Below are positions 14,147-30,821 of a stretch of 32,000 nucleotides of DNA, piece after piece; within the stretch, counting starts at the first letter, position 1, and each line of letters begins with the position of its first letter. The translations under genes and the position numbers were made by a program. The stretch comes from an uncultured archaeon (lineage in GTDB: Archaea; Asgardarchaeota; Jordiarchaeia; Jordiarchaeales; Jordiarchaeaceae). The DNA lies in assembly GCA_964510585.1 (NCBI GenBank), contig CAZECW010000114.1:1-32000 (forward strand), given 5' to 3'. Below the pieces are notes generated by a model. That model was not told the DNA's origin and did not search any database. It worked only from the letters and a program-made list of their open reading frames with translations.

Positions 14147-14194
14147 TCCGTTACATACAAAAGGAATATTTTTGGTTTTGAACTATGTTATTTC

Positions 14195-14527
14195 ATGGAC
14201 ACTGAAACTTATGTTGCCAATTTTTTGGAGGTTTTTCCACCCATCAGGGACGCAATGACTTCTAGAATGGCGGAGCTTAACAAACAATTGAACAAAAAAA
14301 AGGAGAAGAACCCTTTTCTCATAATGCAAAAAATGATGGAAGTTACAATGGAAGTCATCAAAAAATTTGAGCCTCAAATCAAGAAAAAAACAGGAATGAC
14401 AGCCGAAGAATTCCTCAAATACCAAAAAGAACACGAGGAAGAAATTGAAGCCTACCTAGAGGAGCACCCAGATCTAAAGGAGAGAATGGAAAAACTCAAA
14501 GTAAAGATAAACATCAACGAATTGTAA
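14195..14527 (+). CDS. Hypothetical all-helical, highly charged protein (110 aa)
   Basis: The ORF fills the gap in a same-strand cluster and has natural K/E-rich composition. No family recognised. Confidence 0.7.
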   Translation: MDTETYVANFLEVFPPIRDAMTSRMAELNKQLNKKKEKNPFLIMQKMMEVTMEVIKKFEPQIKKKTGMTAEEFLKYQKEHEEEIEAYLEEHPDLKERMEKLKVKININEL

Positions 14528-14757
14528 GAAAAGTTACTCCTTCCTTACTAATTATTTTTTCTATTTCCCTCCCTACTTAATATTTATTTAGATATCATGT
14601 ATTCCCCCTTTATGTTGGTTTTTCTTTTTCTGGAAAAAAACTAGGTTTCGGCTGTGTAAATCGTGTAGAGATTTTTATTAATGAGCTGGGTGGATAACGG
14701 TTATTAGAAGAAAAGGTCTCATACACTTCTGATGCAAAACGTTTTGAGTGTGGTTAT

Positions 14758-16509: not shown

Positions 16510-16538
16510 AGGTTACAATCTACCTATTAACAGTTTGA

Positions 16539-16620
16539 TAAAAGAAAAAAGATTAGTAAATTTACTCGTGTTTCCTTTTTTCCTACCTTTTCATTTTTTT
16601 CTGTTTCTTACTGCAACTTT
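16539..16620. terminator. Putative bidirectional termination zone between convergent genes
   Basis: T-tracts on the plus strand (about 16571-16615) and an A-tract, i.e. T on the minus strand (about 16539-16550), between stops at 16509 and 16657. Confidence 0.4.
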
Positions 16621-16656
16621 GTGGATCTTCAAGGGGTATTTGGTTAGTTTTTTTCA

Positions 16657-17742
16657 TTATTTGATTTCGTCTGGGCTTACTTCTTTGTGGGTTTCTGCGG
16701 ATTTTAGGGCTGCGAGGGCGAATTGGAGAACCTTTTTTCCCTCCTCACCGGATAGTATTGGTTCCTTGTCCTCTAATATGGCATCGATAAAGTGGAGGGT
16801 GGAGTCAATGAAGCTGTCCGCCCAATCGCATCGAAGATTCTCAAAGCACGTCAATTCTCCATCTTTATACATTATGACTGAGGGAATATCGAGCAGTTGT
16901 CCAGTGCACTGGTTTATCCAGATATAACCTTTTGTACCTGTGATTTCCACCCTCTCGTCAGTGCCATAATATTTGGATTTAATTTTCATTTCTGGAGCGA
17001 AGGATGTGTCCCATACTCCCAATTTTCCGGGAGACTTGTACTTCCACATAATTATAGCTGGAGAGTCAAGACATAAGCCAGGCCCCAGCTCTGTAGTTTC
17101 AATCCAAGCAAATACTTTGTCCACATCTCCCATAAAGTAGCGTGCAATGGAAAACTTGTGATAGCCGTCATCCCAAATGGTGGGTCCCCCACCACACTGT
17201 TCCGGCGTAAAACGCCACATCCAAGCCTCCAAGGGCACCTCCCAGCCACACTCCACGGAGCCCGAAGTCATCTTGATTCGAATCATGTGTGGGTTTCCAA
17301 TTTCTCCAGCATCCATTAGCTCCTTTGCCTTGCGGTAAGGTGGATAGAAGATGAAGTTTTCATAAACCTTAAACTTGACTCCCGCCTTTCTGGCGGCGCT
17401 TATCATCTCATCCATTTCCTTCACATTCATGGCGGGTGGTTTCTGAACCGAAACATGCTTACCAGCCTCAGCTGCGGCGACAGCAACCTCTTTGTGCAAA
17501 TAGTGGGGAAGCAGTATCTCCACCATATCTACCTGTTCGTCCTTGAGTAAATCCTTGTAATCCCTGTAAATTTTAGCTTCGGATAAACCATACTCTTTAG
17601 CCTTCTTTTTTGCTCTCACTCCTCTCGAATCACAAAGAGCCACAATCTTAGCCTTATCGGTCTGTAGATAGCCGAGAACATTAAGGTCGAAAATCCGACC
17701 ACACCCAATAATTCCGACACCCAGAGGCTTCAACTTTAACAC
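16657..17742 (-). CDS. Gfo/Idh/MocA family NAD(P)-dependent oxidoreductase
   Basis: GIIGCG-x-I, P-x-x-LH, GKHV-x-x-QKP (variant of EKP), EN, GGG...D-x-G-x-H and EITGTKG. Confidence 0.9.
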   Translation of the reverse strand: MLKLKPLGVGIIGCGRIFDLNVLGYLQTDKAKIVALCDSRGVRAKKKAKEYGLSEAKIYRDYKDLLKDEQVDMVEILLPHYLHKEVAVAAAEAGKHVSVQKPPAMNVKEMDEMISAARKAGVKFKVYENFIFYPPYRKAKELMDAGEIGNPHMIRIKMTSGSVECGWEVPLEAWMWRFTPEQCGGGPTIWDDGYHKFSIARYFMGDVDKVFAWIETTELGPGLCLDSPAIIMWKYKSPGKLGVWDTSFAPEMKIKSKYYGTDERVEITGTKGYIWINQCTGQLLDIPSVIMYKDGELTCFENLRCDWADSFIDSTLHFIDAILEDKEPILSGEEGKKVLQFALAALKSAETHKEVSPDEIK

Positions 17743-18340: not shown

Positions 18341-20203
18341 TTATGCGCCCCACAGATCTTTTGCTACGTCGGGCAAACCGATAATTATTAAGCGATCCTT
18401 GGTAGGAATCGCGTCCTCGGTCCATCCGCGGAATGCATAGTAGTCCTTCATCATCACATCCATTGGAGGAACCCTACCCTTCTGGCCACCCTCTTTGGTA
18501 GGCGTCAGAAGTCTCGGGGGAAGCCTATTGTCCTTAGCAGACATACCGGCACGGACACAGTAAGCCCATTTAAGGTTAAACAGGCGGTCGGCGGTAATAT
18601 TCAGTGTCAGCTCATCAATATTCCAACCACAACAATTTCTGAAGGCCTCCAAGAAGGTCGGCGTACTCATTGCGGTTCCGCCAAACATGCAAATGACTCC
18701 CGCTGCCAGTACCGCGAAAACGTCTTGCATGACTGCAGTGAGTGTACCCTTTCCGGTGGGGTCAAATCTTCCGGTTCTTTTGGTTATACCTGCGGGTGGT
18801 TGTAGTAGTCCCATATCTGCTATGGAGGGATAACCCGTTACGTGGCATGCACCTCGGGGTGCGGTGGCATACTCTACTCCCATGCTGTAGAATGCTCGGG
18901 GGTCATGCATTGGGGCTTCGAGTCCTTTGACTGTTGTTAGAAATTCGTGTCCTTTACCCAGCTTGTCGGCTGCTGCTTGTGAGCCGTCTGCCAATAGTTG
19001 TCCCGCTTTTCCTTCTCTTCTAACGATTTTTTCTGTGAGTCTTACTACTGCGTCAGCGTTTCCCCATGCTAGTTCTATTCCGTCTATGTCGTTCTTTTTT
19101 ATTATTCCCTTTTCGTAGGCTTCTATGGCCCAGGCTACTGTGGCTCCCGTGGATATAGTGTCCACTCCATAGTCGTTGCAGAGATAGTTAACCCAAGATA
19201 TTGCTTCAAGATTATCTACAAGTAGTAATGAGCCGAATGTTCCGCATGTCTCGTATTCTGGTCCCGGTCCCTCGTATTTGTAGGGTCCTTTTTTGATTTC
19301 CACCCATCTACCGCACCTTATGGGGCAGTTGTAGCAGGCAGTTTGTTTTTTGAGTATAGTTTTGTACATAGCTCCGCCGCCGATTCTGTCCGTCCCATCC
19401 CATTCTCCTAGTTGCCAGTTTTTGATGGGTATGTCTCCGAGGGGCTTCATAGAATCCATGAAGTATTCGGTTCCATATTTTCCCAGTCCTAGTGCGACCA
19501 TTGGGTTGATTTCTATCCAGTGGGTGTACTTTTTAATTTGTTCTTTTACTGCGTCGGGGTTTGCCCACTTTATGTCTCCTGTTCCTTTAATGGCTATGGC
19601 TTTGAAATTTTTGCTTCCCATCACTGCTCCAGCTCCTCCTCTCCCTAAGGCACGGGCTTCATCGTTTATTATGCAGGCTAGTTTAGATTTCTTCTCGCCA
19701 GCAGGTCCTATACACAGAACTCTGGCTTTTTTCTCGCCGATTTCTTCTCTTATCATTTCTTGGGTCTTAAATGTGCCTTGTCCCCATATTTTTGAAGCGT
19801 CTCTCAGCTCGTATTTGTTGTCTTTTACTGAGAGGTATACTGGTTTCTCTGATTTTCCTTCGATGACTATTCCATCGTATCCCGCTCTCTTCATTTCAAA
19901 GGCGAAGTATCCGCCAGAGTTTGCTTCTCCATACCCGTGGGATATGGGAGATTTGAATACTACGGTGAATCTTGAGCTACAGGGCAAGCCTCCCGATAGG
20001 GGTCCGGTGAAGAAGTAGAGTTTGTTTTTTTCGTCGAACTCATCTATTTTTGGAGGAACCTCATCGTAGAGTAGACGCGCCCCAAATCCGCTGCCCCCAA
20101 TCCATGTTTTAGCCCATTGCTCATCTATAGGTACCTCTTTTATTTTTCCCTCTGTTAGGTTCACTCTTAAGTATTTACCCATCCATCCAAACATTTCGCT
20201 CAC
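18341..20203 (-). CDS. aor: Tungsten/molybdenum aldehyde:ferredoxin oxidoreductase
   Basis: LRVNLT, SP-x-S-x-GYGEANSGG, GRGG-x-GAVMGSKN-x-KAI, CYNCPIRC Fe-S motif, EYET, DYGVDTIS, KGLE-x-PMHDPR and D-x-LP-x-R. Confidence 0.95.
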   Translation of the reverse strand: MSEMFGWMGKYLRVNLTEGKIKEVPIDEQWAKTWIGGSGFGARLLYDEVPPKIDEFDEKNKLYFFTGPLSGGLPCSSRFTVVFKSPISHGYGEANSGGYFAFEMKRAGYDGIVIEGKSEKPVYLSVKDNKYELRDASKIWGQGTFKTQEMIREEIGEKKARVLCIGPAGEKKSKLACIINDEARALGRGGAGAVMGSKNFKAIAIKGTGDIKWANPDAVKEQIKKYTHWIEINPMVALGLGKYGTEYFMDSMKPLGDIPIKNWQLGEWDGTDRIGGGAMYKTILKKQTACYNCPIRCGRWVEIKKGPYKYEGPGPEYETCGTFGSLLLVDNLEAISWVNYLCNDYGVDTISTGATVAWAIEAYEKGIIKKNDIDGIELAWGNADAVVRLTEKIVRREGKAGQLLADGSQAAADKLGKGHEFLTTVKGLEAPMHDPRAFYSMGVEYATAPRGACHVTGYPSIADMGLLQPPAGITKRTGRFDPTGKGTLTAVMQDVFAVLAAGVICMFGGTAMSTPTFLEAFRNCCGWNIDELTLNITADRLFNLKWAYCVRAGMSAKDNRLPPRLLTPTKEGGQKGRVPPMDVMMKDYYAFRGWTEDAIPTKDRLIIIGLPDVAKDLWGA

Positions 20204-21525
20204 CTCACTTTTTGTAAGTCTGGGTGTTCGACTCGTTTGAATCCCTCTTTGGGAACGGGGTGTATCTTCTTATAGAATTTCCTCAGAGTGGAGCCTGCGG
20301 TCTGCTGGTACAGGAAGGTTGATAACGCTGACTCCATGGGTTCAACAGTTTTCAGCACGTAATCCTTACTGCCTAAACCTATCTCCTGCCCCACATTACA
20401 CTGTATGTCTTCACTTACACCCATGAAGGAACCTGCAGCACTAAACTTTGGCAAACCCGGAGCTGCTACGAATTTTTGTTCAGCAGCTGACCCCGGCATT
20501 CCCACTGATTTTATAGCCATATCTAAGCAGGCTCTATCTATAGCCACAGGATCTTTGCCAGCAAAGATTCCCATGTTTGGAATAATGGGGCGGTCGGAGT
20601 ATGGGATGCAGTCGCACCAAGGAGTGCTATCTATCGCAAAGTTTATGAATCCCACTTTCCCAGGCTCGAAAGTTTTCATACAGGCGAGTGCCGAATCAGC
20701 TATCGCAACGGAGCTCGCTTCAAGGGTGTCTAGTACTTCCAAGGTTGCGAAAACACCACAATCCAAAGTCATAAATAAGTGAGCTAAACAACCCTTGCAA
20801 AGTTCCCGATTAAATTGAATTGGCCCATCTTCAGGAACAGAAAGTGCACCTTCAGGGCAGCAGGAGATGCATGTCTCCCACTTTGCGCATTTCCTACCAT
20901 CACAGTATTGTGGGAAGTAACTTAACGCCTGCAAACCTAGTACGGGGTGAACTCCTAAGTGTAGATTGTATTTCCCTCTCTTAGATGCACACCCTACACC
21001 AATGTTTTTAATAGATCCTCCAAATACTCCCATCGGGTGCCCTTTAAAGTGGGTTAGTACTATCATGGCGTCTGCACATGCTATTGCAGTTGCGATATAT
21101 TGTTCTTTGAGTATGTATCCCTCTGGTAGGTCTACTCGGACATCGTCTGTTCCTAGGAAGCCGTCTCCTATTATCACTGGGCATCCTACTGTTCCTGAGT
21201 TGAAACCGTTTCTCTCTATGGTCATGTACTCGTCCCATGCGTTTGTTCGGAACACGTAGGGAGCGTAGGGTAGAGTGGTTGTATCAACAACGAAGGGCCT
21301 TCCTCCCAGTTCTTTCACTTTATCTGCAATTGCCCTCACATAGACTGGTCGGAGGTAGGCGGTGTTGTTCCATTCACCCATATGTACTTTTATTGCTACA
21401 TAATCGCCTTTATCTATGCACTCGTTTAGCTTGGCCTGATCGAATAGGTGGAGTGCCTTCGCTACTAGACTGGTTGCTGTGCTTTCACTCCTGTCATCCA
21501 TATAAAAAACTTCAGATTTTGCCAT
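20200..21525 (-). CDS. DUF362 family protein with an inserted 4Fe-4S ferredoxin-like segment
   Basis: AIKVHMGE, Y-x-RP, HFKGH...GG-x-IKN-x-G-x-GC-x-x-K-x-GK, Cys cluster CDGRKC..TCISCCP..C-x-x-C, CDC, and DPVAID-x-AC. GTGA overlap with aor. Confidence 0.85.
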   Translation of the reverse strand: MAKSEVFYMDDRSESTATSLVAKALHLFDQAKLNECIDKGDYVAIKVHMGEWNNTAYLRPVYVRAIADKVKELGGRPFVVDTTTLPYAPYVFRTNAWDEYMTIERNGFNSGTVGCPVIIGDGFLGTDDVRVDLPEGYILKEQYIATAIACADAMIVLTHFKGHPMGVFGGSIKNIGVGCASKRGKYNLHLGVHPVLGLQALSYFPQYCDGRKCAKWETCISCCPEGALSVPEDGPIQFNRELCKGCLAHLFMTLDCGVFATLEVLDTLEASSVAIADSALACMKTFEPGKVGFINFAIDSTPWCDCIPYSDRPIIPNMGIFAGKDPVAIDRACLDMAIKSVGMPGSAAEQKFVAAPGLPKFSAAGSFMGVSEDIQCNVGQEIGLGSKDYVLKTVEPMESALSTFLYQQTAGSTLRKFYKKIHPVPKEGFKRVEHPDLQKVR

Positions 21526-21884
21526 CTTTCTCCTCCTATCTAATATTTTTGAATAATTATTTTTGGGTGTATGTTCTTAAAATTATTTTCGCTTCATTTC
21601 AAAATTTTAAGAATTTTTCAACATTTGCCGTATCTATGCTGGAACAAAATAGTAATTATGAATATAATTTTGTTCTTATCATTATATTATATTTTTCTAT
21701 ATTAAAGGCAAAAGCAAGCTGGTTGCCCATAGTTTGAGAGTTTTTAGTGGGAACATATGCGAAGAAGCATTTTAGGTTCAATGAAATATTTTCGGTTCTT
21801 TTCATCCCTTTTTTGACAAGATTTATATTCTATGGTGTTGGATTCTTAATTTTTAAGGAGTATTGTTGGTTTGGAGTTGGTTTG

Positions 21885-22289
21885 ATGGTTAAGTTTCCTA
21901 GCGACGATTGGGCAAAAGCTTATATGAAGGCTTTAAACGAAAATAGGGCTTATGAGGATGCTGCTTTGGACTGGGAAGGTGACTTTCTCTTTGTTATAGA
22001 TCCTGATGACAAGTTAAAGCAGAGGACAGCCATATACCTTGATCTTCATCATGGGAAGTGTAGGGAAGCTTATGTTTTGAAGCCCGGTGAGGAGAAAAAG
22101 ACAAGCTTTGTCATTGAGGCTCCCTACGGTGTTTGGGTTAGAGTGATTAAGAAGGAACTGGATGCAATTCGGGGATTGATGACTGGTAAGTTAAAGTTGA
22201 AGGGAGATATGGCTAAGGTAATGCGGTACACTAAGGCAGCGCAGGAGATGGTTAACACCACAACTGCGATTCAGAGTGAGTTTCTCTAA
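21885..22289 (+). CDS. SCP2 sterol/lipid-binding domain protein
   Basis: KFPS-x-x-W..Y...LN, W-x-G, and GLMTGKLKLKGDM are characteristic. Start reassigned to ATG 21885 (134 aa). Confidence 0.88.
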   Translation: MVKFPSDDWAKAYMKALNENRAYEDAALDWEGDFLFVIDPDDKLKQRTAIYLDLHHGKCREAYVLKPGEEKKTSFVIEAPYGVWVRVIKKELDAIRGLMTGKLKLKGDMAKVMRYTKAAQEMVNTTTAIQSEFL

Positions 22290-22317
22290 ATCTTTTTTTA
22301 TTATTTTTGGGCGGGTG

Positions 22318-23487
22318 ATGGCTTTGTGGTTTTTTATCGGACCCAAAGTGGTTTTTGGAGAAGACGCTTTGGATTATTTGGAGCAGATTCAGGGCAGTAA
22401 GGCGCTTATAGTTACGGATAGAGTTATAGCGGATTTGGGGATTGTTGACAGGGTTAGGGAAAAGTTGAAGACTGCAGGTATAGAGTGTGAGGTTTTTGAT
22501 GAGGTGGAGCCGGATCCTTCAGATACTACGGTGTTTAAAATTTTAGATAGGCTGAAGGATTACGAGCCGGATTGGATAGTGGGCTTGGGTGGCGGCTCCA
22601 GCATGGACGCTGCCAAAACTGCTTGGGTATTGTGGGAGAATCCGGAAAAGAGATTAGAAGACATTAACGCCTTTACTCCAGTGAGCGTTAATCAGAAGGC
22701 GCGGCTCATTACTATTACGACTACTAGTGGTACGGGTTCTGAGGTTACTTGGGCTACGGTGGTTACTGATACAAGGGAGCATAGGAAGATGATATTGATG
22801 GCGAAGGAGATTGTTCCCTTTGCGGCGATTGTTGATCCCAAACTTACACTTAGTATGCCTCCCAGATTGACTGCGGTTACTGGTCTGGATGCTCTGACCC
22901 ATGTGGTGGAGAGTTACATTAATTCTTGGAAGAACGATTTTTCCGATGCCTTTGCTATGAAGGCTATCCAGTTTATTTTTGAGTATCTTCCCAGGGCTTA
23001 CAAGAATGGTGAAGATATGGAGGCCCGCACCAAGATGGCGAACGCAGCAACTATGGCTGGCTTATCCTTTGGAAATGCTTCTGTGGGCATCGCACATGGG
23101 GTGGCTCACTCTGTAGGAGCGGTGTTTGGTTTACCTCACGGCTTAGTTTGCGGCGTTGCTCTACCCTATGTTATTGAGTATAATATTCCCACCTCTGCAA
23201 AGTACTTGGCTGAACTAGCGGAACTTATTGGGATTAGGGAGAGGGATGAGAGGAGGGCGGCGAAGGCTCTGGCTGAAAGGACAAGGAAACTTTTGAGGGA
23301 GATTGAAATTCCCCTGTGTTTGAAGGATTTGGGTATCGGGGAGAAGGAGTTTAGAGAAAATTTTGAACGCTTGGTCAGGCTGACAATTCAGGACGCTTCA
23401 AGCACACTGAATCCCAGAACATTTACCAGAGAGGATATAGAGAAAATCTATGAATGTATTTATTATGGTAGAGAGGTTGATTTCTAA
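22318..23487 (+). CDS. Iron-containing (group III) alcohol dehydrogenase
   Basis: VEPDP, GGGSSMDAAK, TTSGTGSEVT, metal ligands DALTH, H-x-x-AH and HG, and NPR. Start ATG 22318. Confidence 0.95.
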   Translation: MALWFFIGPKVVFGEDALDYLEQIQGSKALIVTDRVIADLGIVDRVREKLKTAGIECEVFDEVEPDPSDTTVFKILDRLKDYEPDWIVGLGGGSSMDAAKTAWVLWENPEKRLEDINAFTPVSVNQKARLITITTTSGTGSEVTWATVVTDTREHRKMILMAKEIVPFAAIVDPKLTLSMPPRLTAVTGLDALTHVVESYINSWKNDFSDAFAMKAIQFIFEYLPRAYKNGEDMEARTKMANAATMAGLSFGNASVGIAHGVAHSVGAVFGLPHGLVCGVALPYVIEYNIPTSAKYLAELAELIGIRERDERRAAKALAERTRKLLREIEIPLCLKDLGIGEKEFRENFERLVRLTIQDASSTLNPRTFTREDIEKIYECIYYGREVDF

Positions 23488-23492
23488 AGAGG

Positions 23493-24380
23493 TTATATGC
23501 AGCGGTATAGTTGAATGAGGGGAGTTACATCGTTTATGGCGGCTTCGAGGCTTATGGAAGCGTATTGGTCTATATGATATTTTCCCCCTTCTTCTTTTAG
23601 TATGCGGTGTTTGACCAGTATTTCTAGGGTTTCTATTAGGCGTTCCTGGGGATTAAAGTTTTTAATTTGGTTCACGGTTTGGTTCTGCAAAATTTGGAGC
23701 GTGGTCACTTCTAGTTTTTTCTGGCGTATTTCTCTTAGTGCGGATACAATGTTTTTGGGGGGCGGTATTCCCACTTTCCAGATGAGTGTTTCTCTCCCCA
23801 GTCCTTGGAGGTTTATTATTTTGTTGTCGTGGAGCTGTTTTATGATTAGTTTGGGGTTGTTAGAAAAGTTTTGTGTGATTTTTATAATTTCTTCCTTATT
23901 TACAAGTGGGGGGGAGTGAAGTATGGCGTCGAATAGTTTTCTGGTTTCTCTCCAGTCTTGGTGTGTTCCCTCAAGGGGGAGGGGACTGTACTTTAGCACG
24001 GAGAGTCTTCCGTCTTTCTCCAGGATGGGGGATAGTTCCTTTTCGACTTTTTGGATGAGTGTTTTGAGGCAACCGTTACCGTTTGGTGTTAGTCCAGTTA
24101 TTTCCGTTACCAGTTCGGGTAGTTCTGCAGGTATGCTGAGCAGTCTTGTGGCTCGAGCGATGATTGATTCTATTCCCCGGGAGTAGAAAACATCTATGAG
24201 TTTCCTTATCTGCTGGGTGGGCAGGATGGGCTTTTTCTCACAGAATTTTTTTATGCACTGGTCAATGAATTTTCTTCGGAGTTCCTGCCCTACCTCCAGT
24301 GATGGGAAAAGTGTGGTGAATGATACCGCATCCCTATTCGCTCGGATAAAGCCCATCGAATCCGAGTGTTTGTTGTTCAA
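23493..24380 (-). CDS. Hypothetical protein (295 aa), third gene of the herA-nurA operon, probably two or three winged-helix-like repeats
   Basis: TTG start 1 nt after the nurA stop. Repeated helix-helix-helix-hairpin segments end in LHDNKIINL..., LVKHRILKEEGGKYHI and possibly ILEKDGRLSV. The fold is a by-eye inference. Confidence 0.75.
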   Translation of the reverse strand: MNNKHSDSMGFIRANRDAVSFTTLFPSLEVGQELRRKFIDQCIKKFCEKKPILPTQQIRKLIDVFYSRGIESIIARATRLLSIPAELPELVTEITGLTPNGNGCLKTLIQKVEKELSPILEKDGRLSVLKYSPLPLEGTHQDWRETRKLFDAILHSPPLVNKEEIIKITQNFSNNPKLIIKQLHDNKIINLQGLGRETLIWKVGIPPPKNIVSALREIRQKKLEVTTLQILQNQTVNQIKNFNPQERLIETLEILVKHRILKEEGGKYHIDQYASISLEAAINDVTPLIQLYRCI

Positions 24381-24381
24381 A

Positions 24382-25596
24382 TCAAACCCCCCTAGGCTTG
24401 CTTACCTTCCAAATCACCTCTAATCCATGTTTTGGTTTAAAAAGGCGATAAAACTTTTTGGGAGAAATTTTATTCTGCCGGGCTATTTTGACAATCTTGG
24501 CTAACAACTCGTCCGCAAGAAAGTTGGGTAAATCTGTCTCTATGAGACTGAACGCATGGGCAAACTCAAGCGACCAAGGTACATTGTTCAGGTTGCTTGC
24601 CTGGTAATAAATTGCGGAACACACATATTCGAGTTGCTTTTCGCTTTCCGCTATATCCTTGTGTAACTCTACTCTGATGGGGAGAGCTTCTGGGTGGGGC
24701 TTTATGTAGAAGAACTTTTGTTGGGAAAGAAATTTGGAGTAACGTTCGCCGAATATTTTCCTATTCGCCAGAGTTGTCCACAGATCACTTGTTTGGGGAA
24801 CTGTGATGTTTAGCTCATCCCGATTACCCGGTCGGAGAAGGGAGTCCAAAAGGTTGGCATCATTTATTCGGCCATAAACTCCACTTAACCAGTAGGAAAC
24901 GTTCTTGTATTTTGAAATTAGATCCATAGAGTGGGGGGACTTTATCACAAAAGCATGGAGTGTCTCTAAGAGCTTTTCAGACAGTATATCTGCCGTGCCC
25001 TGGCTTCCATAGATTTTTTCGAAAATAATTTTGTACTCCTGCTGCACCTCTCGACTCTGGTTACTGAAAATTTCTGATTCCCCCAGACTATAGGGCAGAA
25101 GATCATAGTGAGGAACAAAGGGGCCGTCCAGCAAAACGAGATCGCAACTGTTTCCCTCAAGTGCACGTAGACTAACAAGGCGCTCAAGATACTGTCGGGA
25201 CACTGCTTGAATCCGCTCCACGTCCTCGTCTACCAGGCCCATAACAGGTATACACTTTCCAACAATGTAGGGATTATGTGCCACGGGATTGTTACATTTG
25301 AAGGTTATTCCCGCCGCTGAAACTACAATGAGATCCAAACCCGCCCTTTGGCTTCTATTGGAGGAGCCGTCAACTGCAACTGTAACAGCATCTCGGGCTG
25401 CAGGATTGGTGTTAAGTGTTAGGGTTTCAAGCTGCTTACTCTCACTTAGATTCTCAACTGATTCTATGAGATCCAGATACACGTCGTAGAACCGATATAC
25501 TTCAGATTCGAGTATGTCCAGTGTCTGGTGGAAGATTTCTCCACCACAATTTCCGCCGCTTTTCTCCTCTTCCAAGAATTTTAAAAGGTTGTTCAC
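24382..25596 (-). CDS. nurA: NurA family 5'-3' nuclease (RNase H-like fold)
   Basis: AVDGS, YLER, LLDGP and C-terminal P-x-x-L-x-x-AH match the NurA D/E/D/H catalytic set. GTGA overlap with herA. Confidence 0.85.
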   Translation of the reverse strand: MNNLLKFLEEEKSGGNCGGEIFHQTLDILESEVYRFYDVYLDLIESVENLSESKQLETLTLNTNPAARDAVTVAVDGSSNRSQRAGLDLIVVSAAGITFKCNNPVAHNPYIVGKCIPVMGLVDEDVERIQAVSRQYLERLVSLRALEGNSCDLVLLDGPFVPHYDLLPYSLGESEIFSNQSREVQQEYKIIFEKIYGSQGTADILSEKLLETLHAFVIKSPHSMDLISKYKNVSYWLSGVYGRINDANLLDSLLRPGNRDELNITVPQTSDLWTTLANRKIFGERYSKFLSQQKFFYIKPHPEALPIRVELHKDIAESEKQLEYVCSAIYYQASNLNNVPWSLEFAHAFSLIETDLPNFLADELLAKIVKIARQNKISPKKFYRLFKPKHGLEVIWKVSKPRGV

Positions 25597-27194
25597 ACTC
25601 TATTCCTCTCCGCGAAGTCCCTATGGAGATCAAAGACTGTGTTTCCGCCGTAGCCCAGCTGTATGTCTCCCTTTTCAATGGTTACACAGAGAGGGTCCTT
25701 CAGCGGAGTGGCCATACCAGCTATCAGGAACTCTCCCACCCCCAAACGAGGAAGAATCTTTTGAATCTCTGGAAAATCAGTGTAGTCTTCTATGGCTCTC
25801 ATATCATTTGCTGCTGTTAAACACCCACAGAAGAGAGTGCTGAGGTTTGAGAAGACTGTTTTTGAGATTCGGGAGATTCTTTGATTAATGATGGTTAGGT
25901 TTGCCCCGAACTTGCGGCCCTCCTCAGAGAGGCTTGTTATTTTTCCTGAGGAAAGGTAGGGTTTTCCAACGGTTATCTGACCGTAGGAACCACCCATTTC
26001 AGGAATATAGTTTTTCGCCTCATCAATTATTAGGTGAATCGGGTATCTGTTTCGAAGAATCAAATCAGCAATAGTTCCAATCTTAGCCTGTCTGGCATCC
26101 AATGTGTCACAAGAAGCGTCAATAACCAGTATGTTACCAGCAGCCCTCTTCCAAATTGTGTTGTACTGATCCACGCTGCCCCCTGCAAAAATATCTTTGC
26201 CCAGCAATTTAACCCGACGCCGTATGGCTGCACTCCAGCTGCTTATAGAACCATCCTTTTTATAGAATTCGTCTAGCCACTCATTCACATAGGACATAAA
26301 ACATTCACTATTAAGCTCCGCAGCACCACATGTGAAATCCATCACGAAAATATCCGCCGCCACCTCTACAGCCTTCTTAGCCTGAGAGGGAAGCACATCT
26401 AATCCCAGAGTTTTAACAATATCGTTAGCATCTGTAGGAACCACCGGTAATTCTAAACTAGACATAACCTGGAAATTGCTACACAACTTGTCCAGATTGC
26501 TGGTAGCATATTCACCAGTATGATCCCAAACTATAACATTAACTTTCTTTTTTAGAGAGGATAACCCCACAATATTAGCCGCAGTGGTGACGCTCTTGCC
26601 CATACCTATACGGGCGAATATTCCCACCCCCAAACGCAGTATAGCTGAGGCGTCTAGATCCACTGGGTAATCGGTTTCGCGAATCTTACCCACAGGATAG
26701 TATTCTCCCTCCCTAGCGGGGTCTCGGAATAGGGCTTCGTAATCTTCCTTGTTGGATATGAATATGGGGGAACAGGGTTTGGGAGGGTGAGATAACCTGC
26801 GCACTCCGGGATGGGCAGGAATTCCATATATGCGAAGCTCGCCGAACTTCATATTTTGATCTAGTCTGGGAACCTCACCGTAAAGGCTGGAGAAGTAGTT
26901 CAAAACGTCGGTGGTTGCCCCCCTTGTGGCAGCGAAAAGGTTTGAAACCAGCCCAATAGCTTTAGTTTTTTGGTGGCTGACGGTGAGGAGTTGGCCCTCA
27001 TAAACATAATCCGTGGCGTAGTCGAAGACTGCGAAATCGCACTTTTTAGTGCTGGTTGGACTTGTTACGAAACCTACGGGAGAGGCGCCCTTCAAGATTT
27101 GTTCTTTTGAACGCAAATACTCATATTCTTCGACTTCGGAGCTCATAACGGCTCGCAGCACGGATGTTTCGAGGCCTGTTTCCTCAACCGTCAT
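25593..27194 (-). CDS. herA: HerA/FtsK family ATPase/helicase with an N-terminal HAS-barrel-like region
   Basis: Walker A ARIGMGKS, WDHTGEY, Walker B IIDEA, arginine finger EGRKFG, NQR motif, and L-x-x-GEF-x-x-x-G. Confidence 0.92.
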   Translation of the reverse strand: MTVEETGLETSVLRAVMSSEVEEYEYLRSKEQILKGASPVGFVTSPTSTKKCDFAVFDYATDYVYEGQLLTVSHQKTKAIGLVSNLFAATRGATTDVLNYFSSLYGEVPRLDQNMKFGELRIYGIPAHPGVRRLSHPPKPCSPIFISNKEDYEALFRDPAREGEYYPVGKIRETDYPVDLDASAILRLGVGIFARIGMGKSVTTAANIVGLSSLKKKVNVIVWDHTGEYATSNLDKLCSNFQVMSSLELPVVPTDANDIVKTLGLDVLPSQAKKAVEVAADIFVMDFTCGAAELNSECFMSYVNEWLDEFYKKDGSISSWSAAIRRRVKLLGKDIFAGGSVDQYNTIWKRAAGNILVIDASCDTLDARQAKIGTIADLILRNRYPIHLIIDEAKNYIPEMGGSYGQITVGKPYLSSGKITSLSEEGRKFGANLTIINQRISRISKTVFSNLSTLFCGCLTAANDMRAIEDYTDFPEIQKILPRLGVGEFLIAGMATPLKDPLCVTIEKGDIQLGYGGNTVFDLHRDFAERNRV

Positions 27195-27240
27195 ACAAAT
27201 TACCCCGTAGGGCTTTAGCTTGGTTCATTTTATAGGTGAA

Positions 27241-27260
27241 CCACTATTTAAATTTAGTGG
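27241..27260 (-). promoter_or_regulatory. Putative herA TATA box (TTTAAATA, 27252-27245) embedded in the inverted repeat CCACTA-N8-TAGTGG
   Basis: Consensus archaeal TATA on the minus strand about 50 nt upstream of the herA ATG, flanked by 6-bp inverted arms. Confidence 0.55.
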
Positions 27261-27711
27261 AAAACACAAAAAATTTTTGAATTAATGGAAGGATAACCTA
27301 TCATAATATATAAATAAAATGCGTTTTTTGTGATAGGACTTCTTATTTACTGAAAAAACTTTCTTGAAATTGTGAAAGTGGCAGGAGCAAAAAGAAGTAA
27401 GGTATGATACTTTGGGGAAAATTTGGATACTTTTTGAACAATTTTTACTGGTCTGGGGGCGAATCTGGAGGGCAAGCTTGTTCCTATCATTATTTATAAA
27501 TAATTTCGGATAGTTGTGATAGTAGCTATGTTGTGCTTATTGTACTTTTAAAGGGATATTTCTGAAAAAGACCATAAAATATATATACAGGATATATGAT
27601 ATTTCATACAAAAACCACCACTTCCACTCGTTTAGAAATAAATAAAATAATATTGACAGGTTTATTCGTCTTACCTACGGGAAAATCGGTGATTATTTCG
27701 AGGCGTCCTAG

Positions 27712-28008
27712 ATGATAGATGAATTACTAGGTTTGGGTAGATCAAAGACACGTTTGGATATTGTAAACCTCATGTTGGATGAGGGTAGACCCTTATCAGC
27801 TTCAGAGATAGCGGAAAAGCTGGGTATCAGCCTTAACGCTGCAAATATTGCTATCCACTATTTGAATAAGGCGCGTCTTTTGAATAAGGTTGAACGTGGC
27901 ATGTATGAGGTCAATGTTTATGCCTTCTGTAAGGCGTTTCTAACTTTTCTTTTAGGTTCTAAGGTTAGCGGTTATGCTGGTAAGAGTCTTGAAGAATACA
28001 CAAAGTGA
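27712..28008 (+). CDS. Small winged-helix (ArsR/MarR/TrmB-like) DNA-binding protein 1
   Basis: RPLSASEIAEKLGIS HTH, wing ending RGMYEVN, C-terminal hydrophobic helix. Confidence 0.85.
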   Translation: MIDELLGLGRSKTRLDIVNLMLDEGRPLSASEIAEKLGISLNAANIAIHYLNKARLLNKVERGMYEVNVYAFCKAFLTFLLGSKVSGYAGKSLEEYTK

Positions 28009-28028
28009 GTGGGAGGTGAAAAGCCAGG

Positions 28029-28307
28029 TTGAGTGGTCTATTAGACGATACGGTGCTGCGGCTCCGAGGTGGCAGTCTAAAGGTTCTATCGCTTCTATCC
28101 ATTTCGCACCGTCCCTTAAGGCCGGTTGAGATAGCGGATATTCTGGGCATGCAGCTCAACGATGTGGGAAAGTATCTTGTTAGGTTGGCTAGTAAAGGGC
28201 TGGTTTCGAAGGTTAACTTGAATGGCAATTCCACTGGTTACACTTCAAACCTAGATATTCTGGAACTTGTGCTGGACCATGAGCGTAGATTAAGGAATTT
28301 GGAGTAG
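28029..28307 (+). CDS. Small winged-helix protein 2
   Basis: GGAGGTGA RBS, TTG start, RPLRPVEIADILGM, RLASKGLV and GYTSN. Confidence 0.85.
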   Translation: MSGLLDDTVLRLRGGSLKVLSLLSISHRPLRPVEIADILGMQLNDVGKYLVRLASKGLVSKVNLNGNSTGYTSNLDILELVLDHERRLRNLE

Positions 28308-28334
28308 GGCCTGTTTAGGAATGGGGGCTGCTTT

Positions 28335-28634
28335 TTGAGTTCCGAGGATAGCGATAATCTTTTTGACAAGTTCGACAAGCTTATGAGGATGAGGGATAAT
28401 GCAAACAAGGTGCTCATCTACATTCTAACTAGCCCTAAGCCAGTGACTCCTAAGGAGCTTATGGATAACTTGGGTTTGACTGAGAATAGTGTTTGGAAGA
28501 CTGTTAGGCGATTGGAGGCAGATGGTTTTCTTAGATTGGTTGGTAGGGGGGAGTATGAGCCTAACTTGGGTTTGTTAACTGCGCTTCTTCTGTTTAAAGT
28601 GCAGGAGTTAATTAAAATGTTAGAAAAGAGATGA
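28335..28634 (+). CDS. Small winged-helix protein 3
   Basis: SPKPVTPKELMDNLG, RLEADGFL and RGEYEPN; close paralog of protein 4. Confidence 0.87.
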   Translation: MSSEDSDNLFDKFDKLMRMRDNANKVLIYILTSPKPVTPKELMDNLGLTENSVWKTVRRLEADGFLRLVGRGEYEPNLGLLTALLLFKVQELIKMLEKR

Positions 28635-28638
28635 TTGG

Positions 28639-28950
28639 ATGAGTGATGATGAAGAGCAGATTAGTTCCAAGGAGGCGTTTAATAAATTATTGAGGCTGGG
28701 CGAGTCCTCCATTCAGATAATTGAGTACATACTTTGCTCACCTAAACCCGTGACTCCTAAAGAACTGGTGGAAAAGTTGGGAATTACGGAAGGCACGGCT
28801 TGGAATGCGTTAAGCAGATTGCAGAAGATTGGTTTCCTTGTTACCAAAAGTAGGGGGGAGTACGAGGCAAATATAGGATTTATTTTAGCCATGGTTCTTT
28901 TCACACTAAGCGATATGGCTGAAAAATTGAGAGAAGTAAAGAGGAGGTGA
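28639..28950 (+). CDS. Small winged-helix protein 4
   Basis: SPKPVTPKELVEKLG, RLQKIGFL and RGEYEAN. Confidence 0.87.
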   Translation: MSDDEEQISSKEAFNKLLRLGESSIQIIEYILCSPKPVTPKELVEKLGITEGTAWNALSRLQKIGFLVTKSRGEYEANIGFILAMVLFTLSDMAEKLREVKRR

Positions 28951-28973
28951 ATACAAGGAGGAGTAACCGGAGA

Positions 28974-29165
28974 ATGGAAAAGTTTGCAGGCTATTAAAAT
29001 TTTCCGGGGAAGACATTTTCCACATCGAAACCATATTTTCCAGAATTGAGAGATAGACTTGGCGGCTCCTACAAAACATGGAAAGATTTGGGTTCGTTGG
29101 TCTTGTGGTTTAAATATGAGCCCAATCAAATAATCAGGTGTAGGAAGGATGTGTCCCAAATATAA
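28974..29165 (+). pseudogene. Probable decayed sixth winged-helix paralog
   Basis: AGGAGGAG RBS, ATG 28974, in-frame TAA at 28995, then the same frame reads SKPYFPELRDRLGGSYKTWKDLGSL..KYEPN. This echoes KPVTPKEL...LG...W...L and YEPN of proteins 3 and 4. Confidence 0.45.
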
Positions 29166-29301
29166 GATTCTTGGTGGCTAAAGCTCTGGAAATTGTTCTA
29201 AACGCTGACAAAGGGGATAAATGGTAAGAAGGAGGAACCAAAATGAATTAATTAAAATTTATGATTTAAAATTTAATTCAATGTGTTTGGAGGTTTAACA
29301 A

Positions 29302-29628
29302 ATGGAAGATGAAGATGTGTTTGAGGAAGGAGAGGCATTTGGGGGAGATTATAAGACTCTAATAAAGAAGTTAATTGATCCTAGAGCCAGAACTATGTAT
29401 TCCATCTTGGAACTTCTGCTTCAAAATGTGAAGAGTGAACCGGTTTCTGCCAGTAATATAAAGGATAAGCTGGGGATTTCTAAGCAGGCGGCTACCAATG
29501 CTGCGCGTAGGCTTGAGGAAACAGGATTCATAACCCGCACGCCTGAGGGATATATGGTAAATCAGGGATTCATAATAAATTTGTTAATCCAACTTGTTGG
29601 GGAAATCTTGAAAAAACTGGAGCTCTAA
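29302..29628 (+). CDS. Small winged-helix protein 5
   Basis: GGAGGT RBS, EPVSASNIKDKLGIS, RLEETGFI and GYMVN, with an acidic N-terminus. Confidence 0.87.
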   Translation: MEDEDVFEEGEAFGGDYKTLIKKLIDPRARTMYSILELLLQNVKSEPVSASNIKDKLGISKQAATNAARRLEETGFITRTPEGYMVNQGFIINLLIQLVGEILKKLEL

Positions 29629-29711
29629 ATCGAAAATTGGTAACTCAAAGAGCGTCCGCGAAGAAAAAGTAGAATAATCTGGAAGGTACTTGACAGAATC
29701 TTTGGAACTTT

Positions 29712-30821
29712 TTATATGGATATTTTCTCCAAGCCCTCAACTATGCTCTGGGTTCCCTTGCTTATTGCTACTTTTTCTAGGTCTGAACGTGTTACTATTT
29801 TACCCGTTTTTGCCGATAGGTAACATAGAAGAGCTACCTCTACAGCTTTTTTTGCCTCTTCGGGGGAGAAGGCTGGCTCCCTGTCGTTGAGTATGCATTC
29901 GGCGAAATGGGCATCCTCATTTCTAAATGAGATAATGTAATACATTGGAAAAGGTTCATGCTCCACATCAGGGCTGAACCACTGGTATCTGTGTTCGCCA
30001 GCTTCTTTGCTAGTCGAGAATATCTGCACCGGTTTTTTCCAGGAGTGATCCTCTAGAATAGTTCCCTCTGTTCCGTAAAATTCCAGTCTGTTGTTTGGAG
30101 GGCTAAACACTGTGTCGCTTACAACAACACTACCAACGCATCCGTTTTCAAATTTTAGAAGCATCATAGCGTTGTCCTCAGCCTTATTCTGCAGTTTTAT
30201 AATCTGCTTAGCTAGCCAGCAGTAAGCTGAATGCACGTCTCCTAACATCCAATTCAGTATGGCGAATTTGTGCACTGCAGCGTCCATTAACACGCCGCCG
30301 CCTGCTTTTTTTGGTGAGCCCTTCCAGTGTTCAGGCTTTGCAAGATCCGGGGTTTCATCCACACCCTCATAACCCCTTACGAGTATGGGGGTTCCTATCA
30401 GCCCAGTTTCCAGTGTTTTTTTGATGAGTTGATGTGCGGGTAGGAAGCGGTGGTTTTCTGCTATCATAAGTTTCACTCCAGCCTTTCTTGCCGCCTTTAT
30501 CATTTTGTCGCACTCTTCAAGAGTTGGGGCCATAGGTTTCTCACAGAGAATGTGTTTACCAGCCTCTGCCGCTGCGACGGTTAGCTCGGCGTGTAGGTGG
30601 TGGGGGAGGGCTATGAGAACTGCATCAATATCATCATTTTTCATAATGTCTTGATAATTCCTGGTTACTGTTAGATTGTAAATATCGGCCAATTTCTTAG
30701 CGTTTTCATAGTTCACATCAAAGGCAGATACTAGCTTAATCTTGTCCACATATTTACATGCCGAAGCGTGAAAATGAGCCGCTGTCCCGCATCCCAAAAC
30801 ACCAATTTTAACTTGTCTCAT
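29712..30821 (-). CDS. Gfo/Idh/MocA family NAD(P)-dependent oxidoreductase
   Basis: GVLGCG, PHHLH, GKHILCEKPMA, AENHRF, GGGVLMD-x-x-VH and YGTEG. Confidence 0.92.
   Translation of the reverse strand: MRQVKIGVLGCGTAAHFHASACKYVDKIKLVSAFDVNYENAKKLADIYNLTVTRNYQDIMKNDDIDAVLIALPHHLHAELTVAAAEAGKHILCEKPMAPTLEECDKMIKAARKAGVKLMIAENHRFLPAHQLIKKTLETGLIGTPILVRGYEGVDETPDLAKPEHWKGSPKKAGGGVLMDAAVHKFAILNWMLGDVHSAYCWLAKQIIKLQNKAEDNAMMLLKFENGCVGSVVVSDTVFSPPNNRLEFYGTEGTILEDHSWKKPVQIFSTSKEAGEHRYQWFSPDVEHEPFPMYYIISFRNEDAHFAECILNDREPAFSPEEAKKAVEVALLCYLSAKTGKIVTRSDLEKVAISKGTQSIVEGLEKISI

What the first reader, a model, noticed from the sequence alone, without database searches (positions are those of the whole stretch)
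27712..29628. Tandem array of five paralogous small wHTH proteins with a shared scaffold and different recognition helices
Seen: all five share P-[LV]-x-x-x-[EN]-[IL]-x-x-x-LG, a helix ending L-x-x-x-[GR]-[LF]-[LIV], a wing ending Y-x-x-N, and a hydrophobic C-terminal helix. The presumed recognition helices all differ: LNAANIAIHYL, LNDVGKYLVRL, ENSVWKTVRRL, EGTAWNALSRL and KQAATNAARRL. Proteins 3 and 4 are the most recent duplication (SPKPVTPKEL, RGEYE-x-N). Known: wHTH plus a C-terminal dimerisation helix is the architecture of archaeal Sso10a-type and viral F93-type proteins. Inference: co-expressed paralogs could heterodimerise through that helix and give combinatorial DNA recognition, or act as chromatin proteins.
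Basis: partly seen in the sequence, partly recalled or inferred. Interest (0 to 1): 0.7.

Follow-up and report, generated by a model that had tools for sequence, protein, structure and literature searches.

The report
Conserved winged-helix gene array facing herA-nurA
Five intact genes and one decayed gene for small, related DNA-binding proteins form an ancient fixed-order operon in an Asgard archaeon (Jordarchaeia); it always sits back-to-back with an unusual herA-nurA DNA-processing gene pair and shares a unique control element with it, so it is probably that machine's dedicated regulator or DNA-targeting set.

Summary
The five ORFs (27712-29628, + strand) are true paralogs with a well-predicted ArsR/Lrs14-like winged-helix fold.

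- **Orthogroups:** they belong to six orthogroups (A-F). The sixth, E, survives here only as a pseudogene in the 350-bp gap (about 28947-29245).
- **Age:** all the duplications predate the split of two Jordarchaeales families. A more distant MAG has the order Z-A-B-(single C/D)-E-F.
- **Selection:** every orthogroup is under purifying selection (dN/dS 0.03-0.25). The recognition helix is the best-kept element between orthologs (72% identity) and among the least shared between paralogs (25%).
- **Context:** the array always faces a lineage-specific herA-nurA(-X) operon. The spacer holds a genome-unique, cross-family conserved inverted repeat (CCTATCA-N26-TGATAGG) around a TATA box, present twice here.

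My best reading is a co-expressed set of ligand-independent, sequence-specific DNA binders that control or target the HerA-NurA module. Heterodimerisation remains untested, because the complex job gave no verdict. A bulk chromatin role is not favoured. Sso10a/F93 kinship is not shown; the nearest families are ArsR/SmtB by fold and Lrs14/Sta1 by sub-threshold sequence matches.

This scan has noted similar arrays beside nurA-herA on other DNA, in another Asgard genome, Bathyarchaeia and Nitrososphaerota. I found no published description.

The parts
27712..28008 (+). wHTH paralog A (98 aa); recognition helix LNAANIAIHYL
   Evidence: ORF and Pfam wHTH hits. Orthogroup A has support 100/99. GAGG lies 8 nt upstream of the ATG. 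A-like genes also face NurA-HerA in L058 and L071. An RNA-library contig covers 27700-28001.
28029..28307 (+). wHTH paralog B (92 aa, TTG start); longer wing and a short charged C-terminal helix
   Evidence: orthogroup 100/100. GGAGGT lies upstream. dN/dS is 0.03-0.13.
28335..28634 (+). wHTH paralog C (99 aa, TTG start)
   Evidence: The stop lies 4 nt before the start of D.
28639..28950 (+). wHTH paralog D (103 aa), the protein that was modelled
   Evidence: AF2 pLDDT 91. ArsR/Lrs14-like fold. dN/dS is 0.03-0.06.
28947..29245 (+). Pseudogene of orthogroup E (approximate limits), with stops, frameshifts and a deletion over the recognition helix
   Evidence: tblastn with the intact E of G002 gives E 2e-7 over residues 74-106. 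DNA aligns along the full length with the E genes of G002 and G005, and the decay is shared with G003 and G004.
29302..29628 (+). wHTH paralog F (108 aa), with its own AT-rich upstream stretch and GGAGGT
   Evidence: orthogroup 99/97; sister of E, 97/88. Single-copy F-like genes occur in 41/43 genomes of another Asgard family.
27297..27337 (.). Operator-like element, copy 1: CCTATCA-N26-TGATAGG around ATATATAAAT, about 100 nt from the herA ATG
   Evidence: Repeat family D1. Conserved in G003, G004, G005, G006 and G010, and degenerate in G009. Unique in the genome.
27483..27522 (.). Operator-like element, copy 2 (78% identical to copy 1, 186 nt downstream, 190 nt upstream of A)
   Evidence: The second copy is present in genus g1 only.
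25593..27194 (-). Divergent herA-like ATPase (533 aa, DUF87, Walker A GMGKS, Walker B IIDEA)
   Evidence: Pfam. Syntenic in every relative examined. This type was found in 10 of 201 Asgard genomes, all Jordarchaeales.
24382..25596 (-). nurA-like nuclease (404 aa), overlapping the herA stop
   Evidence: Pfam NurA 6.6e-14. It is one of four NurA genes in the genome.
23493..24380 (-). Orphan third gene X (295 aa) of the herA-nurA operon
   Evidence: Conserved in both families at 33-35% identity. No family assignment. The AF2 model is unusable at pLDDT 39.

Best explanation
The array is one operon encoding a set of anciently diverged, ligand-independent, ArsR/Lrs14-like winged-helix DNA-binding proteins. 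There are six orthogroups, A-F. In this genome A-D and F are intact and E is decayed. Each orthogroup carries its own fixed recognition helix.

The operon belongs to a cassette specific to Jordarchaeia: herA-nurA(-X) on one strand and the wHTH array on the other, sharing one control region.

Proposed mechanism (inferred): the proteins are made together and bind DNA, probably as dimers through helices a1 and a5. At least one of them, A being the best candidate, occupies the inverted repeats that bracket the TATA boxes in the spacer. That would set transcription of both the array and herA-nurA-X. The other paralogs would add further DNA specificities, acting either as co-regulators or as adaptors that bring the HerA-NurA motor-nuclease to particular DNA.

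Shown: paralogy, fold, orthogroup structure, purifying selection, strict synteny, and the conservation and genome-uniqueness of the element. Inferred: DNA binding, dimerisation, which paralog binds the element, and any contact with HerA-NurA.
For: - **Paralogy and fold:**
- **Six orthogroups older than the family split:**. The distant MAG L058 keeps the order A-B-(C/D)-E-F.
- **Selection:** dN/dS is 0.03-0.25 for all groups. Helix a4 is 72% identical between orthologs across families and 25% identical between paralogs (per-column table).
- **Operon layout:** gaps between genes are 4-27 nt or the genes overlap, each gene has a Shine-Dalgarno motif, and there is no room for internal promoters between A and D.
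- **Co-occurrence:** the array is present in 11 of 11 Jordarchaeales genomes and no array was seen in 30 other Asgard genomes. This HerA type is in 10 of 11 and in 0 of 190 others. herA-nurA is divergent from A wherever the contig allows a look.
- **Wider link for A:** an A-like gene (45% identity) also faces a distant NurA-HerA pair in L071.
- **Spacer element:** it is duplicated here, conserved across families, and occurs nowhere else in the genome. A loose pattern gives one other site against two in the control. Three of the four CCTATCA words in the 32-kb window lie in the spacer.
- **No sensor features:** there is no sensor domain and no conserved Cys or His.
- **Weak sign of expression:** contigs of an RNA library cover A, B into C, and parts of herA and nurA, but not the spacer.
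Against: - No experiment or direct computation shows DNA binding, dimerisation, or binding to the element.
- The inverted-repeat arms lie about 33 bp apart centre to centre, which is wide for one compact wHTH dimer.
- The element is absent from L058 although A's recognition helix is kept there, so the A-to-operator assignment is weak.
- Five or six regulators for one three-gene operon is excessive, which argues for something beyond simple repression.
- Distant relatives of the family are stand-alone genes in housekeeping neighbourhoods.
- F sits 11 kb from the array in G009, and F-like genes exist without the cassette. F may therefore act independently.
- The RNA evidence comes from assembled contigs, which may contain DNA.
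Confidence: 0.55

Rival explanations
1. The co-expressed paralogs pair with each other through the terminal helices, so that mixed dimers read composite, asymmetric DNA sites.
For: Tight translational coupling suggests equimolar synthesis. The gene order is fixed over long evolutionary time. The putative interface helices a1 and a5 are the least conserved parts, at 28% and 48% between orthologs, as would be expected if partner specificity evolves. The paralog set is far larger than one operator needs.
Against: There is no positive evidence. E or F can each be lost alone while the other is kept. C and D derive from a single gene that still stands alone in L058. Both facts argue against obligate sister-pair heterodimers. 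The solved ArsR and Lrs14 relatives are homodimers (established knowledge; Sul14a dimer, PMC12847825).
Confidence: 0.2
2. The proteins are subunits or adaptors of the HerA-NurA machine. Their winged helices serve mainly as protein-protein or DNA-end-handling modules, in the way tandem-WH kite or ESCRT-II subunits do. Together with X they would form a new multi-subunit DNA-processing or defence complex.
For: Co-occurrence with a lineage-specific HerA-NurA type is strict. This pair is one of four in the genome, so it is probably specialised. There is no Mre11-Rad50 in the cassette. In L071 the NurA-HerA pair beside A-like wHTH genes is followed by an AAA_15 ATPase and DUF3226. Earlier notes of this scan report same-operon or fused arrangements in Bathyarchaeia; those are unchecked leads.
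Against: The arrangement is divergent, not co-directional. The proteins show the typical regulator wHTH fold with basic residues in a4 and the wing. NurA, X and the wHTH proteins have no PADLOC system match, and HerA hits are generic. The flanks are metabolic genes and not a defence island.
Confidence: 0.15
3. The proteins are Lrs14/Sso10a-like nucleoid-associated proteins. They would be abundant, weakly specific DNA binders that shape chromatin, and their position next to herA-nurA would be incidental.
For: The closest named sequence family is Lrs14/Sta1, and AbfR2 and ST1889 are full-length structural matches. Lrs14 proteins are also multi-paralog, lack a ligand domain, are dimeric and are proposed to be nucleoid-associated proteins (PMC12847825).
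Against: The scores are far below the family cut-off, 27 against 90 bits. The pI values are 5.0-9.3 with near-zero net charge. Each orthogroup has a distinct recognition helix under strong constraint. The synteny with one operon is strict, and the operator-like element is unique to the locus. Asgard archaea have histones (own knowledge).
Confidence: 0.08

Closest known systems
Lrs14 family of Sulfolobales (Lrs14, Sta1, Smj12, AbfR1/AbfR2, ST1889, Sul14a; NCBIfam NF040939, NF053606)
   Same: Both are archaeal wHTH proteins of about 100-125 aa with an N-terminal helix and a long C-terminal helix, without a ligand-binding domain, and with several paralogs per genome. AbfR2 (6cmv) and ST1889 (2d1h) are full-length structural matches. 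This is the best named sequence family. Lrs14 binds its own promoter (PMC12847825).
   Different: The scores are far under the cut-off, 27.4 against 90 bits. The phylum differs (Asgard, not Thermoproteota). As far as I know, Lrs14 paralogs are dispersed, and are not held in a fixed-order operon or tied to herA-nurA. The proteins here are not basic.
ArsR/SmtB metalloregulators (for example 6j05, 2oqg, CadC 1u2w, SmtB 1r22)
   Same: These are the best full-length fold matches: Z 12.0 (rmsd 3.3, 92 residues aligned) and Z 11.6 (rmsd 2.1, 94 residues aligned). The topology a1-a2-a3-a4-hairpin-a5 is the same. A passes the Pfam HTH_5 cut-off.
   Different: There are no conserved Cys or His metal sites. 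The genes are not next to metal-resistance genes. There are six specialised paralogs in one operon.
Sso10a and viral F-93
   Same: All are small archaeal or viral wHTH proteins that dimerise through a C-terminal helix (established knowledge).
   Different: Neither appears among the listed sequence or structure matches. The model has an extra N-terminal helix and a C-terminal helix of about 24 residues.
Archaeal HerA-NurA end-resection module (Sulfolobus, Pyrococcus, Thermococcus; PMC3326311, PMC5715905)
   Same: The divergent partner operon encodes a DUF87/HerA ATPase with intact Walker motifs and a NurA-domain protein, with overlapping genes.
   Different: There is no mre11-rad50 in the cassette. 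The pair is one of four in the genome (four NurA in Freyarchaeum are also noted in PMC13748450). It carries an orphan third gene X and a wHTH array. No described HerA-NurA system has such an array, judging from my literature searches.

Membership tests
Lrs14 family (NF040939) | Whole-protein score at or above the curated cut-off of 90 bits | tested here: not met
   Best score is D at 27.4 bits. C scores 16.5 and F 18.6. A and B have no hit.
Lrs14 family (NF040939) | wHTH fold with N- and C-terminal helices, as in AbfR2 and ST1889 | tested here: met
   Foldseek: 6cmv_C E 1.3e-3, TM 0.61; 2d1h_B TM 0.64. VIA: 2d1h_A Z 10.0, 90 residues aligned.
Lrs14 family (NF040939) | Homodimer that binds DNA | not testable with these tools
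ArsR/SmtB family | a1-a2-a3-aR-b1-b2-a5 fold | tested here: met
   6j05_A: Z 12.0, rmsd 3.3, 92 residues aligned. 2oqg_C: Z 11.6, rmsd 2.1, 94 residues aligned.
ArsR/SmtB family | Metal or metalloid sensing site (Cys, His or Asp ligands in a3 or a5) | tested here: not met
   Each protein has 0-1 Cys and 0-3 His, and none is conserved across the family or within the D orthogroup.
ArsR/SmtB family | Pfam HTH_5 or HTH_20 at or above the gathering score | tested here: inconclusive
   Only A passes HTH_5 (23.3 against 22 bits). HTH_20 is below its cut-off in all five. The others score best with HTH_11, HTH_24, IclR or MarR.
MarR family | Pfam MarR domain together with the 140-150-aa architecture that has a helical dimerisation and ligand domain | tested here: not met
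   F passes PF01047 (34.6 against 24.6 bits). However, all the proteins are 92-108 aa with a single short a1 and a5.
Sso10a-type / F-93-type wHTH | wHTH followed by a long C-terminal coiled-coil helix that alone makes the dimer, with detectable similarity to 1R7J or 1TBX | tested here: inconclusive
   Neither is among the 60 listed sequence matches or the 50 listed structure matches of each search. Absence from a capped list does not exclude kinship.

The most novel reading that the evidence does not exclude
The wHTH array, HerA, NurA and X together form an undescribed archaeal DNA-processing system, for repair, defence or DNA uptake. In it, a panel of five or six specialised winged-helix subunits, each reading a different DNA sequence or structure, licenses or aims a dedicated motor-nuclease. 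If the unchecked notes from Bathyarchaeia and Nitrososphaerota hold, the same logic recurs across several archaeal phyla.
Probability: 0.2. Interest if true: 0.8.

Novelty: new variant of a known kind. Interest (0 to 1): 0.58.

Why it matters
Asgard NurA and HerA homologs are uncharacterised, and Freyarchaeum stands out for having four NurA genes (PMC13748450). This cassette gives one of those pairs a specific, testable set of partners:

- a defined control element;
- six small proteins that are easy to express;
- clear predictions about who binds the element, whether the paralogs pair with each other, and whether they touch HerA-NurA.

It is also a clean natural case of one wHTH scaffold splitting into six specificities that have been held together in one operon since before two families diverged. 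That is useful for studying how DNA-recognition helices diversify. If the link to NurA-HerA holds in other archaeal phyla, it points to a widespread and overlooked layer of control or targeting for a DNA-end-processing machine whose cellular role outside thermophiles is still debated.

Tried and rejected
- **C+D complex prediction:** ipSAE 0.02 against a mark of 0.32, so no verdict. It counts neither for nor against binding.
- **AF2 of the orphan X from 6 orthologs:** pLDDT 39, unusable. hhalign of X against the wHTH family gave probability 1.4%. The idea that X is made of tandem winged helices remains untested.
- **Defence and virus links:** no PADLOC system match beyond generic HerA and weak Csa3/CARF-wHTH similarity. 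No phage tblastn hit. Only marginal PHROG hits.
- **RNA:** no Rfam family in 27000-29800. The 187-nt leader folds no better than shuffled sequence, z +1.47.
- **Regulon search:** the strict element occurs only in this spacer. A loose version finds one other site against two in the control. No regulon is detectable this way.
- **Wider search with HerA:** The search for related loci reached only Jordarchaeia. The nearest outside HerA (39% identity, labelled Korarchaeota) lies on a contig cut at the side where an array would be.
- **Search with the L071 A-like protein:** only 3 relatives, all unnamed.
- **Operator in other lineages:** no shared operator was found in the L058 or L071 spacers.
- **Sigma-70 and terminator scan:** irrelevant for an archaeon and uninformative.
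- **Poly-wHTH repeat proteins at the top of the profile search:** these are generic repeats without the C-terminal helix, and not fused forms of this array.
- **Read laying:** assembled contigs only, so no transcript ends, strand or levels. Uncovered parts say nothing.
- **Antisense ORF 28713-29159:** rejected as a gene, because its matches are the antisense of the conserved D gene.
Full report
**What is there**

The + strand between 27712 and 29628 carries five ORFs of 92-108 aa, which I call A, B, C, D and F. They align over their whole length at 29-39% identity to A. Invariant positions include a Pro before helix 3, the LG after it, a Leu in the recognition helix, and the Y-x-x-N that closes the wing. 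All five hit only generic winged-helix Pfam models such as HTH_11, HTH_24, IclR and MarR.

A profile of the five finds them at E 1e-25 to 1e-42 in the 3.78-Mb genome that holds the window, and nothing else better than 2e-5. They are therefore a locus-specific paralog family.

**Organism and distribution**

Named database relatives and locus titles place the window in the Asgard class Jordarchaeia, among Freyarchaeota/Jordarchaeum MAGs from hot springs.

- The array is present in all 11 Jordarchaeales genomes searched, covering two families. No array was seen in 30 other Asgard genomes.
- A tree of 53 copies resolves six orthogroups: A 100/99, B 100/100, D 100/99, E 98/92 and F 99/97. E and F are sisters (97/88), and C and D form a clade (94/96). 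Every group contains both families, so all the duplications predate the family split.
- A more distant MAG (WJIK01000119, labelled Heimdallarchaeota; HerA 61% identical) has the order Z-A-B-(one C/D gene)-E-F. This confirms that C/D is the youngest duplication and that the gene order is ancient.

**The hidden sixth member**

Two genus members have an intact E gene between D and F. In the window, the 350-bp gap aligns with those E genes over its whole length. It carries stops, frameshifts and a deletion over the recognition helix (tblastn E 2e-7). The same decay is present in the two closest relatives.

Across genomes, A-D are always present. E and F vary, but at least one of the two is always kept.

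**Selection and specificity**

- dN/dS is 0.03-0.25 for all six groups, at saturated dS.
- The recognition helix is the most conserved element between orthologs of the two families (72% identity) and among the least shared between paralogs in one genome (25%).
- Helices a1 and a5 are the least conserved between orthologs, at 28% and 48% (per-column table).

This is the pattern expected when each paralog has its own fixed target.

**Fold**

AF2 on an 80-sequence alignment gives D a pLDDT of 91, with the topology a1, a2, a3, a4 (recognition), beta hairpin and a 24-residue a5.

- Full-length matches are ArsR/SmtB repressors: 6j05 (Z 12.0, rmsd 3.3, 92 aligned) and 2oqg (Z 11.6, rmsd 2.1, 94 aligned).
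- Archaeal Lrs14-family proteins AbfR2 and ST1889 also match, as does MJ223.
- NCBIfam gives Lrs14 and Sta1 only far below cut-off, 27 against 90 bits.
- There are no conserved Cys or His residues and no extra domain, so no obvious sensor.
- The pI values run from 5.0 to 9.3, unlike bulk chromatin proteins.
- Sso10a and F-93 do not appear in the listed matches.

**Context**

Upstream and divergent lies herA (DUF87, intact Walker A and B), then nurA, then an orphan 295-aa gene X.

- This arrangement is syntenic in both families and in further contigs.
- This HerA type was found in 10 of 201 Asgard genomes, all of them Jordarchaeales.
- The genome has four NurA/HerA pairs. This matches a review noting four NurA genes in Freyarchaeum and stating that no Asgard NurA has been characterised (PMC13748450).
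- In a 32%-GC contig of unknown taxon (L071), an A-like gene (45% identity) and a second wHTH gene face a much more distant NurA-HerA pair. The A-type member therefore carries the widest link to NurA-HerA.
- Other distant relatives are stand-alone genes in housekeeping neighbourhoods.
- F-like single genes are conserved in another Asgard family, in 41 of 43 genomes.

**Control region**

The 517-bp spacer holds two 40-nt copies (78% identical, 186 nt apart) of CCTATCA-N26-TGATAGG around a TATAAAT core.

- The herA-proximal copy is conserved in both families, and the second copy in the genus.
- The strict pattern occurs nowhere else in the genome, and a loose pattern is at control level.
- Three of the four CCTATCA words in the window lie in the spacer.

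Inverted repeats that bracket a TATA box are a classic layout for archaeal repression by occluding TBP/TFB (established knowledge). That one of the array proteins binds here is an inference.

**Expression**

Genes A-D are separated by 4-27 nt, each with a Shine-Dalgarno motif. F has its own AT-rich upstream stretch. Contigs of one RNA library from a close relative cover A (starting 12 nt before the ATG), B into C, and parts of herA and nurA. This is only a weak hint, because contigs may contain DNA.

**Mechanism and rivals**

- **Best reading (0.55):** a co-expressed panel of sequence-specific, ligand-independent wHTH proteins that autoregulate and control or target the HerA-NurA(-X) module through the shared spacer.
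- **Heterodimer and combinatorial recognition (0.2):** remains open. The only complex job gave no verdict. The independent loss of E or F, and a single C/D gene in a distant lineage, argue against obligate sister pairs.
- **Adaptor or subunit role in a new HerA-NurA system (0.15):** this is the most novel reading that is not excluded.
- **Lrs14-like nucleoid role (0.08):** disfavoured by charge, by the helix-specific constraint and by the locus-specific link.

**Novelty**

I found no paper describing a wHTH array tied to herA-nurA. This scan has noted comparable arrays beside nurA-herA in another Asgard genome, in Bathyarchaeia and in Nitrososphaerota. Those are unchecked AI notes; I confirmed the pattern only in Jordarchaeia, the WJIK MAG and L071. 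I file the finding as a new variant of a known kind: small archaeal wHTH regulators in an unusual, conserved, multi-paralog operon with a dedicated partner machine.

Noticed in passing
window 28947-29245: Pseudogene of the sixth paralog (E), shared with the two closest relatives. Strains in runs X14 and X16 replace 28981-29101 inside it with 126 other letters.
   Followed up: yes
window 27297-27337 and 27483-27522: A duplicated, genome-unique inverted repeat around a TATA core. It is conserved across two families.
   Followed up: yes
window 23493-24380 (-): Orphan gene X of the herA-nurA operon. It has no family, its AF2 model has pLDDT 39, and it is absent from the WJIK cassette. That cassette instead has a 63-aa CxxC...CxxC protein upstream of herA and a 205-aa protein after F.
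   Followed up: partly
G000 contigs C137, C118, C195 and C114: The genome has four NurA/HerA pairs. The window's pair matches the family models least well among the three HerA-sized pairs.
   Followed up: partly
L025:1456-1812 and L026:1489-1848: A single-copy F-like wHTH gene is conserved in 41/43 genomes of another Asgard family. In both loci examined it is convergent with an MfnA-like PLP decarboxylase gene.
   Followed up: partly
L071:1-5300: In a 32%-GC contig, a distant NurA-HerA pair beside A-like wHTH genes is followed by an AAA_15/AAA_21 ATPase and a DUF3226 protein. This composition looks like a defence system.
   Followed up: no
P0084, P0086, P0088, P0092, P0099: Long proteins made of 4-28 tandem wHTH repeats, for example 640 aa with 8 repeats of about 70 aa. 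They top the profile search by summed score. Their nature and taxa are unknown.
   Followed up: no
L075 and L076: Distant stand-alone relatives of the family share a GatD / GPN-type GTPase | wHTH | EMG1(Nep1) neighbourhood in two unrelated contigs.
   Followed up: no
window 12446-17742 and 18341-23487: The flanks are metabolic genes (aldehyde:ferredoxin oxidoreductase, DUF362, SCP2, Fe-ADH, Gfo/Idh/MocA, GH57), not a mobile element or defence island.
   Followed up: no
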